A stretch of 64,000 nucleotides of DNA from Escherichia coli 042 (GTDB lineage: Bacteria; Pseudomonadota; Gammaproteobacteria; Enterobacterales; Enterobacteriaceae): the NCBI RefSeq assembly GCF_000027125.1, contig NC_017626.1; one strand, 5' to 3'. The notes under the pieces were generated by a model. It made no database searches, was not told the DNA's origin, and saw only the letters and a program-made list of their open reading frames with translations. Positions 26,626-27,659 of this stretch are shown piece by piece. Every line of letters begins with the position of its first letter. Position 1 is the first letter of the stretch. A program made the translations under genes and the position numbers.

Positions 26626-26728
26626 AAAAAAAACCGCCAGTAAACCGGCGGTGAATGCTTGCATGGATAGATTTGTGTTTTGCTTTTACGCTAACAGGCA
26701 TTTTCCTGCACTGATAACGGATCGTTGA
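26626..26728 (-). ncRNA. mgrR: PhoPQ-regulated sRNA MgrR (approximate ends)
   Basis: Minus-strand terminator (ccgccggtttactggcgg + U8) at 26626-26651; PhoP-box direct repeat GTTTAA-gctcc-GTTTAA at 26757-26773 about 30 bp upstream of the expected start; location between mgtS and dgcZ as in K-12. Confidence 0.55.
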
Positions 26729-26768
26729 CACAGTAGCATCAGTTTTCTCAATGAATGTTAAACGGAGC

Positions 26769-27659
26769 TTAAACTCGGTTAATCACATTTTGTTCGTCAA
26801 TAAACATACAGCGATTTCTTCCGGTTTGCTTACCCTCATACATTGCCCGGTCCGCTCTTCCAATGACCACATCCAGAGGTTCTTCAGGAAATGCGCGACT
26901 CACACCTGCAGTCACGGTAATGTTGATATGCCCTTCAGAATGTGTGATGGCATGGTTATCGACTAACTGGCAAATTCTGATACCTGCACGACATGCTTCT
27001 TCATCATTAGCCGCTTTGACAATAATGATAAATTCTTCGCCACCGTAGCGATAAACCGTTTCGTAATCGCGCGTCCAACTGGCTAAGTAAGTTGCCAGGG
27101 TGCGTAATACTACATCGCCGATTAAATGCCCGTAGGTATCATTAACCAATTTAAATCGGTCAATATCCAACAACATTAAATAAAGATTCAGAGGCTCAGC
27201 GTTGCGTAACTGATGATCAAAGGATTCATCAAGAACCCGACGACCCGGCAATCCCGTCAAAACATCCATATTGCTACGGATCGTCAGCAAATAAATTTTG
27301 TAATCGGTTAATGCCGCAGTAAAAGAAAGCAACCCTTCCTGAAAGGCGTCGAAATGCGCGTCCTGCCAGTGATTTTCAACAATAGCCAACATTAATTCCC
27401 GACCACAGTTATGCATATGTTGATGGGCAGAATCCATTAGCCGAACGTAAGGTAATTCATCGTTATCGAGTGGTCCCAGATGATCAATCCACCGACCAAA
27501 CTGGCACAGTCCATAAGAATGGTTATCCGTTATTTCTGGCTTACTGGCATCTCTCGCGACCACGCTGTGAAACATACTCACCAGCCACTGGTAGTGGGCA
27601 TCGATAGCCTTATTGAGATTTAACAAGATGGCATCAATTTCCGTTGTCTTCTTGATCAT
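26769..27659 (-). CDS. dgcZ: Zinc-sensing diguanylate cyclase (CZB + GGDEF)
   Basis: Start placed at MIKKTTEIDAILLNL giving 296 aa; GGEEF motif (RYGGEEFIII). Confidence 0.88.
   Translation of the reverse strand: MIKKTTEIDAILLNLNKAIDAHYQWLVSMFHSVVARDASKPEITDNHSYGLCQFGRWIDHLGPLDNDELPYVRLMDSAHQHMHNCGRELMLAIVENHWQDAHFDAFQEGLLSFTAALTDYKIYLLTIRSNMDVLTGLPGRRVLDESFDHQLRNAEPLNLYLMLLDIDRFKLVNDTYGHLIGDVVLRTLATYLASWTRDYETVYRYGGEEFIIIVKAANDEEACRAGIRICQLVDNHAITHSEGHINITVTAGVSRAFPEEPLDVVIGRADRAMYEGKQTGRNRCMFIDEQNVINRV

What the first reader, a model, noticed from the sequence alone, without database searches (positions are those of the whole stretch)
26626..26773. PhoP box for the sRNA MgrR sits at the 3' end of the dgcZ coding region
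A direct repeat GTTTAA-N5-GTTTAA on the minus strand (26757-26773) lies about 30 bp upstream of the inferred mgrR start and overlaps the last codons or stop of dgcZ. Together with mgtS on the other strand this makes a compact PhoPQ-controlled small-RNA and small-protein island between two transporter and cyclase genes. This is consistent with known biology and is included mainly to support the sRNA call.
Basis: partly seen in the sequence, partly recalled or inferred. Interest (0 to 1): 0.2.

Follow-up and report, generated by a model that had tools for sequence, protein, structure and literature searches.

The report
Known PhoP site of mgrR promoter
This is the already documented PhoP binding site that switches on the E. 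coli small RNA MgrR at low magnesium; the only additions are a third in-phase half-site and the fact that the overlap with the dgcZ stop codon occurs only in Escherichia.

Summary
The repeat is real. The window is E. coli. Mapped from the K-12 annotation, mgrR is 26723..26626 (-), 98 nt. In the canonical frame the box AGTTTA-AGCTC-CGTTTA lies at -52..-36, which is the position a later paper attributes to Moon & Gottesman 2009. Its distal half-site contains the last codon and stop of dgcZ (GTT TAA).

Three refinements:
- E. coli has three half-sites spaced 11 bp apart: AGTTTA, CGTTTA and CATTGA.
- Across 65 mgrR loci from about 15 enterobacterial genera, the shared box is central plus proximal (-41..-25). 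It sits 12 nt from an extended -10. The distal half-site scores well only in Escherichia, Citrobacter and Salmonella.
- The dgcZ overlap is specific to Escherichia.

Both box positions, 12 and 23 nt from the -10, were shown to activate transcription in Salmonella by Zwir et al. 2012. Which register PhoP uses in E. coli is untested. Interest is low.

The parts
26758..26774 (-).
   Evidence: Unique exact match in the window, 0 expected
26770..26775 (-). Distal PhoP half-site AGTTTA (-52..-47). It contains dgcZ's last codon GTT and the TA of the stop TAA.
   Evidence: Sequence; ORF end. In the 65-locus alignment these columns carry under 0.4 bit. The 23-nt register scores well only in Escherichia, Citrobacter and Salmonella.
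26759..26764 (-). Central PhoP half-site CGTTTA (-41..-36), shared by both candidate boxes
   Evidence: [C/T]GTT[T/G]A is present at this position in all 65 loci with enough upstream DNA
26748..26753 (-). Proximal PhoP half-site CATTGA (-30..-25). With the central hexamer it forms the box CGTTTAACATTCATTGA, 12 nt from the -10.
   Evidence: [C/T][A/G]TT[G/T/A]N is present in 65/65 loci at fixed spacing. PWM score 12.9 bits. The forms CATTGA and CGTTGA occur in footprinted Salmonella boxes (orgB, ompX, pagD).
26730..26738 (-). Extended -10 element TGcTACTGT (TG at -15/-14, hexamer TACTGT at -12..-7)
   Evidence: T 94% and G 100% at the TG positions; TA and the final T of the hexamer are 100% conserved. 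None of these columns was forced by the anchoring pattern.
26626..26723 (-). mgrR small RNA gene, 98 nt, +1 = G at 26723
   Evidence: K-12 annotation 1622817-1622914 mapped through the alignment; Rfam RF01407 hit; fold shows a 5' stem-loop, an open central region and a terminator
26626..26652 (-). mgrR intrinsic terminator (8-bp stem plus U8). It is also the first terminator-like site downstream of dgcZ.
26769..27659 (-). dgcZ (diguanylate cyclase); stop codon at 26769-26771
   Evidence: ORF; RefSeq annotation of 99.9% identical genomes and of K-12, 891 nt
26355..26389 (+). mgtS promoter: box AATTCA-GCCTT-CGTTTA (26355-26371), 12 nt, then -10 TAATAT (26384-26389)
   Evidence: Sequence. The same pattern lies upstream of mgtS in about 30 other loci. 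PhoQP-dependent mgtS-mgtT operon (PMC11429745).
26456..26643 (+). mgtS (26456-26551) and the overlapping mgtT (26551-26643), convergent with mgrR

Best explanation
This segment is the PhoP-dependent promoter of the small RNA gene mgrR. It has no -35 hexamer. In its place are three PhoP half-sites in direct orientation with an 11-bp period: AGTTTA (-52..-47), CGTTTA (-41..-36) and CATTGA (-30..-25). These are followed by 12 nt, an extended -10 (TGcTACTGT) and +1 at 26723. At low Mg2+, phosphorylated PhoP dimers bind head-to-tail on one face of the helix and recruit RNA polymerase.

The central hexamer is the fixed anchor. Paired with the proximal hexamer it forms a box 12 nt from the -10, the arrangement seen at mgtA and phoP. 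Paired with the distal hexamer it forms the documented box 23 nt from the -10, the arrangement seen at rstA.

What is shown: the sequence anatomy, its conservation, the annotated 5' end, and (from the literature) PhoP dependence. What is inferred: that both registers contribute in E. coli, and that the extra half-site raises sensitivity to PhoP. The overlap with dgcZ arises because, in Escherichia only, the dgcZ reading frame ends on the GTT-TAA of the distal half-site.
For: - Unique repeat. The three-hexamer pattern is unique in the window, with 0.01 expected.
- mgrR position and strand.
- Documented site at -52..-36 and a protein-occupancy peak over -16..-81: PMC8313858.
- PhoP dependence of mgrR and yneM fusions: PMC3536696. 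MgrR is induced at moderately low Mg2+: PMC6239178.
- No sigma-70 -35/-10 consensus was found here.
- All 65 mgrR loci with enough upstream DNA share, without gaps, a central hexamer, N5, a proximal hexamer, 12 nt, TGn and TAnnnT. All 9 loci tested carry the Rfam MgrR family.
- Zwir 2012: direct PhoP boxes lie 12 nt (architecture I) or 21-23 nt (architecture III) from the -10. A moved phoP box activated at 12, 23 and 33 nt and only weakly or not at all at intermediate distances.
- A PWM built from 17 footprinted boxes scores 12.9 bits for the 12-nt register and 11.2 bits for the 23-nt register. Both fall within the leave-one-out range of real boxes, 5.8-20.9 bits.
- The promoter segment is present at 95% identity or better in 5414 of 5426 E. 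coli genomes.
Against: - No PhoP footprint, ChIP or box mutagenesis for mgrR could be read. The cited source calls the site a 'consensus motif identification' only.
- The occupancy peak is not PhoP-specific and cannot resolve the register.
- The PWM is loose: 7-13 other 19-mers in the window score as high.
- The anchoring pattern forced several of the '100%' columns.
- Because the two boxes share the central hexamer, two dimers cannot occupy both at once. Binding of three protomers is conjecture.
- The original paper (Moon & Gottesman 2009) was not available, so it may already describe the third hexamer.
Confidence: 0.9

Rival explanations
1. Only the documented box (distal plus central hexamers, -52..-36, 23 nt from the -10, rstA-like architecture III) is used in E. 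coli. The proximal CATTGA is an ancestral remnant.
For: It is the best match to the core consensus, 10 of 10 GTTTA bases. It is the position attributed to Moon & Gottesman 2009. A distance of 23 nt is fully active. In the Citrobacter freundii group the 23-nt register outscores the 12-nt one, for example 14.8 against 6.7 bits.
Against: The distal hexamer is not conserved in most genera; the median score of the 23-nt register is 6.0 bits against 14.9 for the 12-nt register. Its spacer GCTCC lacks the TT seen before the second hexamer in most real boxes and in 89-94% of mgrR orthologues. In E. coli the PWM scores the 12-nt register slightly higher.
Confidence: 0.25
2. Only the widely shared box (central plus proximal hexamers, -41..-25, 12 nt from the -10, mgtA/phoP-like architecture I) is functional. 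The distal AGTTTA is incidental sequence that happens to encode the Val-stop of dgcZ.
For: The 12-nt register is present in 65 of 65 loci and is the best register in 50 of 65. dgcZ is not adjacent in Salmonella, Enterobacter and most other genera, yet the promoter persists. In L017 the distal hexamer has mutated to AGTTTT, which also destroys the stop codon.
Against: In-phase distal hexamer-like sequences (TAGTTA, TGGTTA) are also present in Citrobacter and Salmonella, where dgcZ does not overlap them. The half-site is therefore not just a by-product of the stop codon. E. albertii has inserted exactly 11 nt, which preserves helical phase. The distal hexamer is a perfect GTTTA core.
Confidence: 0.3
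3. The repeat is a chance feature of the dgcZ 3' end with no regulatory role.
For: None beyond the fact that short T-rich repeats do occur. The loose PWM finds 7-13 equally scoring 19-mers in the window.
Against: The exact repeat is unique in the window with about 0 expected. It sits at a functional distance and orientation from a conserved extended -10 and the annotated +1. PhoP dependence of mgrR is published.
Confidence: 0.01

Closest known systems
mgrR promoter PhoP box of E. coli K-12 (Moon & Gottesman 2009, as cited in PMC8313858)
   Same: The promoter sequence from -60 to +4 is identical to K-12. The position, -52..-36, is the same, as are the strand and the 98-nt sRNA.
   Different: Nothing essential. 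The window has C rather than T at +5 and lacks one base just past the terminator. The third hexamer and the cross-genus comparison are additions made here.
Architecture I PhoP-activated promoters (mgtA, phoP, yrbL, slyB, pmrD, orgB; Zwir et al. 2012)
   Same: Direct-orientation box 12 nt upstream of the -10 hexamer and no -35. The second half-site CATTGA is the same as in the footprinted orgB box.
   Different: mgrR in E. coli carries an additional in-phase upstream half-site, so the box can also be read one helical turn further up.
Architecture III PhoP-activated promoters (rstA, ompX; Zwir et al. 2012)
   Same: Direct-orientation box 21-23 nt upstream of the -10. The distal plus central box of mgrR is exactly 23 nt away.
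   Different: rstA and ompX are described with a single box. They have no reported downstream half-site completing an overlapping 12-nt box.
mgtS (yneM) promoter in the same locus
   Same: PhoQP-dependent. Its box is also 12 nt from the -10 and has one canonical and one degenerate half-site.
   Different: In mgtS the degenerate half-site (AATTCA) is the upstream one. No third hexamer was seen. It drives a small-protein operon (mgtS-mgtT), not an sRNA.

Membership tests
PhoP box (PhoP/PhoQ regulon activation site) | Two (T/G)GTTTA-like hexamers as a direct repeat separated by 5 nt | tested here: met
   AGTTTA-AGCTC-CGTTTA at 26775..26759 has both GTTTA cores exact. The leading bases A and C depart from T/G, but C/T/G is accepted in Zwir 2012. 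The second box CGTTTA-ACATT-CATTGA matches 8 of 10 core bases.
PhoP box (PhoP/PhoQ regulon activation site) | Direct orientation towards the -10 hexamer, at 12 or 21-23 nt from it | tested here: met
   Gaps of exactly 12 nt and 23 nt to TACTGT, counted on the sequence and compared.
PhoP box (PhoP/PhoQ regulon activation site) | The promoter lacks a usable -35 hexamer (activator-dependent) | tested here: met
   The consensus scan finds no sigma-70 promoter here. Bases -35..-30 are ACATTC, 0 of 6 matches to TTGACA.
PhoP box (PhoP/PhoQ regulon activation site) | Conservation of the box in orthologous promoters | tested here: met
   Central plus proximal hexamers and the fixed spacing to the -10 are present in 65 of 65 loci. 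For the distal hexamer alone the result is clade-limited: it scores well only in Escherichia, Citrobacter and Salmonella.
PhoP box (PhoP/PhoQ regulon activation site) | PhoP-dependent, Mg2+-responsive transcription of the downstream gene | not testable with these tools
   Literature only: the mgrR-lacZ fusion falls when phoP is repressed (PMC3536696), and MgrR is PhoP/PhoQ-dependent (PMC6239178).
PhoP box (PhoP/PhoQ regulon activation site) | Physical binding of PhoP~P (footprint, EMSA or ChIP) | not testable with these tools
   There is only a non-specific IPOD-HR occupancy peak over -16..-81. The cited basis for the site is motif identification.
MgrR / STnc560 sRNA (Rfam RF01407) | Match to the family covariance model above the gathering score | tested here: met
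   276.3 bits against a gathering score of 55, on the minus strand. The model is 214 nt and overruns the 98-nt sRNA at both ends.
MgrR / STnc560 sRNA (Rfam RF01407) | 98-nt transcript ending in an intrinsic terminator with a U-tract | tested here: met
   Mapped from the K-12 annotation; terminator; fold.
DgcZ (YdeH) diguanylate cyclase gene | Orthology to annotated dgcZ | tested here: met
   99.9% identical DNA is annotated dgcZ in RefSeq genomes and in K-12.

The most novel reading that the evidence does not exclude
The mgrR promoter is built on one invariant PhoP half-site whose partner half-site has moved between the downstream side (12-nt register, most genera) and the upstream side (23-nt register, Citrobacter freundii group). 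E. coli keeps both partners. If so, the annotated E. coli box (-52..-36) is only half of a three-protomer or two-register site, which would help explain MgrR induction at only moderately low Mg2+. Because the distal half-site is the dgcZ Val-stop and dgcZ has no terminator of its own, PhoP occupancy and dgcZ read-through could also interfere with each other.
Probability: 0.35. Interest if true: 0.35.

Novelty: already known. Interest (0 to 1): 0.15.

Why it matters
As stated, the finding only confirms textbook E. coli annotation and supports the MgrR call. The added value is small but concrete. First, the box shared by the widest range of genera is 11 bp downstream of the one usually cited. 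Second, E. coli carries three phased half-sites at exactly the two distances known to activate. Third, the overlap with dgcZ is a lineage-specific accident of gene packing. Together these give a natural test case for how PhoP sites shift by whole half-sites while staying in helical phase.

Tried and rejected
- I tried to read Moon & Gottesman 2009 (PMC2841474 and PubMed id), Yin 2019 (PMC6351178), Wang 2017 (PMC5465934) and Thomason 2015 (PMC4288677). None is held. The original figure, the 5'-end mapping and any promoter mutagenesis could therefore not be checked.
- A full-text search for the two box sequences found nothing. A search for STnc560 plus PhoP found nothing.
- The supplements of the EHEC PhoP paper (PMC7667037) and of Harari 2010 (PMC2908699) do not mention this locus.
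- The strict consensus search, KGTTTA-N5-KGTTTA with up to 1 mismatch, does not detect the site. It picks up the mgrR terminator instead, so that consensus is too strict for this box.
- I first thought the distal hexamer was purely a by-product of the dgcZ stop codon. I dropped this after the PWM scan showed in-phase distal hexamers in Citrobacter and Salmonella, where dgcZ does not overlap them.
- The PWM cannot decide between the two registers in E. coli (12.9 against 11.2 bits).

Full report
**Locus identity.** The window is Escherichia coli. A 701-nt segment around the finding matches 5408 of 5426 complete E. coli genomes over at least 80% of its length, at up to 99.9% identity. From the ORF list and the RefSeq annotation of near-identical genomes and of K-12, the genes are:
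- eamA (-)
- ydeE, 25142-26329 (+), an MFS exporter
- mgtS, 26456-26551 (+)
- mgtT, 26551-26643 (+)
- mgrR (-)
- dgcZ, 26769-27659 (-), a diguanylate cyclase
- ydeI (-)

K-12 annotates mgrR at 1622817-1622914. Aligning K-12 to the window puts mgrR at 26723..26626 on the minus strand, 98 nt, beginning GATCCGTTATCAG and ending in a U8 tract. Rfam RF01407 (STnc560, the Salmonella name for MgrR) hits the same strand at 276 bits. That model is 214 nt, so its hit (26757..26545) overstates the RNA at both ends. The 98-nt RNA folds into a 5' stem-loop, an open central region and the terminator (terminator also).

**The observation.** It is the only exact match in 64 kb, and no shuffle had one. The GTTTA-N6-GTTTA core is also unique, with 0.11 expected. 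dgcZ ends ...AAC CGA GTT TAA, with the stop at 26771-26769. The upstream copy of the repeat is therefore the Val codon plus the stop codon. Relative to +1 (26723) the repeat spans -51..-35. In the canonical (T/G)GTTTA frame it is AGTTTA-AGCTC-CGTTTA at -52..-36.

**Agreement with the literature.**
- PMC8313858 gives the documented PhoP site of mgrR as '-52 to -36 (Moon and Gottesman, 2009)', obtained by consensus motif identification. This is the same 17 bases.
- Its supplement lists an IPOD-HR protein-occupancy peak carrying a PhoP motif at K-12 1622930-1622995, which is -16..-81.
- PMC3536696 treats mgrR and yneM (mgtS) as directly PhoP-activated and uses fusions of both promoters.
- PMC6239178 summarises MgrR as PhoP/PhoQ-dependent and induced at moderately low Mg2+.
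- PMC11429745 shows that mgtS-mgtT is a PhoQP-dependent operon.

Neither of its stated refuting conditions holds. I could not open the original paper or any primary TSS or footprint data.

**Promoter anatomy.** Read 5' to 3' on the minus strand, the promoter is:
- AGTTTA (-52..-47)
- AGCTC
- CGTTTA (-41..-36)
- ACATT
- CATTGA (-30..-25)
- GAAAACTGATGC (12 nt, ending in TGc)
- TACTGT (-12..-7)
- GTCAAC
- +1 G

This gives three hexamers with an 11-bp period, not two. The three-hexamer pattern is unique in the window, with 0.01 expected. No -35 is present: the consensus scan finds no sigma-70 promoter, and -35..-30 is ACATTC.

**Comparison across genera.** A 20-nt piece of the MgrR seed region found 67 loci in one-genome-per-species contigs. 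The genera include Escherichia, Citrobacter, Salmonella, Enterobacter, Lelliottia, Leclercia, Kosakonia, Phytobacter, Pluralibacter, Silvania, Yokenella and Huaxiibacter. Nine loci were tested and all carry RF01407 above its gathering score.

All 65 loci with enough upstream DNA align without gaps as follows:
- [C/T]GTTTA
- N5, whose last two bases are T in 94% and 89% of loci
- [C/T][A/G]TT[G/T/A]N
- 12 nt ending in TG (94% and 100%)
- TAnnnT (TA and T 100%)
- six bases, then +1

Several hexamer columns were forced by my anchoring pattern. The spacer TT, the TG, the -10 and the fixed spacing were not forced. By contrast, the columns of the distal hexamer carry under 0.4 bit each. The box shared by the widest range of genera is therefore central plus proximal, -41..-25 in E. 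coli (26764..26748). It lies entirely outside dgcZ.

**Scoring with real boxes.** Zwir et al. 2012 (PMC3335776) list footprinted Salmonella PhoP boxes. They classify promoters by the distance from the box to the -10:
- 12 nt: architecture I (mgtA, phoP and others)
- 21-23 nt: architecture III (rstA, ompX)

Both use the direct orientation. Moving the phoP box showed strong activity at 12 and 23 nt, about half at 33 nt, and little at the other distances tested. The two readings of the E. coli mgrR array sit at exactly 12 and 23 nt.

A PWM built from the 17 direct activation boxes gives these scores:
- 12.9 bits for the 12-nt register
- 11.2 bits for the 23-nt register
- 5.8-20.9 bits as the leave-one-out range of genuine boxes

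The matrix is loose; 7-13 other 19-mers in the window score as high. Across the 65 loci the 12-nt register is best in 50. The 23-nt register is best in 15, all of them Citrobacter plus Salmonella enterica subsp. diarizonae. Median scores are 14.9 against 6.0 bits. In the Citrobacter freundii group the proximal hexamer has decayed to CATTGG. There the distal box TAGTTA-CGTTT-CGTTTA scores 14.8 bits and resembles the footprinted yobG box CAGTTA-CTCCT-GGTTTA. The distal half-site is thus a feature of the Escherichia-Citrobacter-Salmonella clade, not merely a by-product of the dgcZ stop codon.

**The dgcZ overlap.** tblastn shows dgcZ directly upstream of mgrR only in Escherichia and Citrobacter. 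It is absent from the available upstream DNA in Salmonella, Enterobacter and the other genera. Citrobacter DgcZ has a C-terminus 10-16 residues longer and stops 15 nt or more upstream of the central hexamer, so its stop codon lies outside all three half-sites. Only in E. coli and E. whittamii does the frame end on the GTT-TAA of the distal half-site. E. albertii has exactly one extra 11-nt unit (GTTTAAcagct AGTTTTgcgct GTTTAAcatct ATTGAG), and its stop lies in a fourth phased hexamer. In L017, a species representative labelled E. coli, TAA has become TTA. There the ORF runs seven more codons and stops at the TGA of the proximal hexamer. The overlap is a lineage-specific result of gene packing. 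Within E. coli it is essentially fixed: the 85-nt promoter segment is present at 95% identity or better in 5414 of 5426 genomes.

**Mechanism.** The sequence anatomy, its conservation and the annotated 5' end are shown here. PhoP dependence comes from the literature. From these I infer the following. PhoP~P dimers bind head-to-tail to the phased hexamers on one face of the helix. They recruit RNA polymerase to a promoter that has an extended -10 and no -35. The central hexamer is the anchor, and either flanking hexamer can complete a box at an activation-competent distance. Whether E. coli uses one register, alternates between them, or loads a third protomer is untested. My rough weights are 0.45 for both registers contributing, 0.3 for the 12-nt register alone and 0.25 for the 23-nt register alone.

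**Verdict.** The finding is correct and already known, and it properly supports the MgrR call. The refinements (third hexamer, the more widely shared register, the Escherichia-specific overlap) are minor. They may already be partly visible in the original paper, which I could not read. Interest is low.

Noticed in passing
window 26620-26643: The window lacks one base (G on the + strand, just past the mgrR U-tract at 26626) that K-12 has. All eight best E. coli hits listed also span 702 nt against the 701-nt query. As a result mgtT is 30 aa here (...YDGKKNRQ) against 34 aa in K-12 (...YDGEKKPPVNRR). This could be a real frameshift or a sequencing error.
   Followed up: partly
window 26355-26389 (+): The mgtS promoter has its own box, AATTCA-GCCTT-CGTTTA, 12 nt from the -10 TAATAT. 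The pattern (A/G)(A/G)TTCA-N5-(T/C)GTTTA-12 nt-TAnnAT recurs upstream of mgtS in about 30 other loci. The degenerate half-site here is the upstream one, the reverse of the widely shared mgrR box.
   Followed up: partly
window 26551-26643: The mgtT ORF overlaps the mgrR 3' end antisense by 18 nt (26626-26643). It also contains a strong hairpin (about 26579-26609) followed on the + strand by TGATTTTTAT, which looks like the mgtS terminator sitting inside the mgtT coding sequence.
   Followed up: no
window 26626-26771 (-): dgcZ has no terminator of its own. The first terminator-like site downstream of its stop on the minus strand is the mgrR terminator. dgcZ read-through transcripts would therefore cross the PhoP sites and carry MgrR as a 3' UTR.
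   Followed up: partly
L017 (around the dgcZ end), L004 8745-8852: In L017 the dgcZ stop TAA has become TTA, and the ORF extends 7 codons (LAPFNIH) to the TGA inside the proximal PhoP half-site. E. albertii (L004) carries an exact 11-nt insertion that creates a fourth phased hexamer.
   Followed up: partly
L014, seed copies at 1438-1457 and 3032-3051: Enterobacteriaceae bacterium RIT691 has two copies of the mgrR seed about 1.6 kb apart. One has the PhoP-box promoter. The other, next to mgtS, has no recognisable box.
   Followed up: no
L007 and L058: Contigs labelled 'Caldithrix sp.' MAG and 'Chryseobacterium sp. 18061' carry enterobacterial mgrR-mgtS. L007 also has ydeE at 97.7% protein identity to E. 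coli. This looks like contamination of those assemblies.
   Followed up: no
L005, L008, L010, L022, L048, L049 and other Enterobacter, Lelliottia and Leclercia loci: In these genera the mgrR homologue has neither mgtS nor dgcZ nearby, so the 'PhoPQ island' arrangement is not universal. Many Enterobacter promoters carry a conserved GGTTAA about 12-13 nt upstream of the central hexamer, out of the 11-bp phase.
   Followed up: no
window 26545-26757 (-): The Rfam RF01407 model is 214 nt. It covers promoter DNA from -34 and about 80 nt beyond the terminator, including the mgtS-side hairpin. Rfam-based annotation would therefore give MgrR more than twice its real length.
   Followed up: yes
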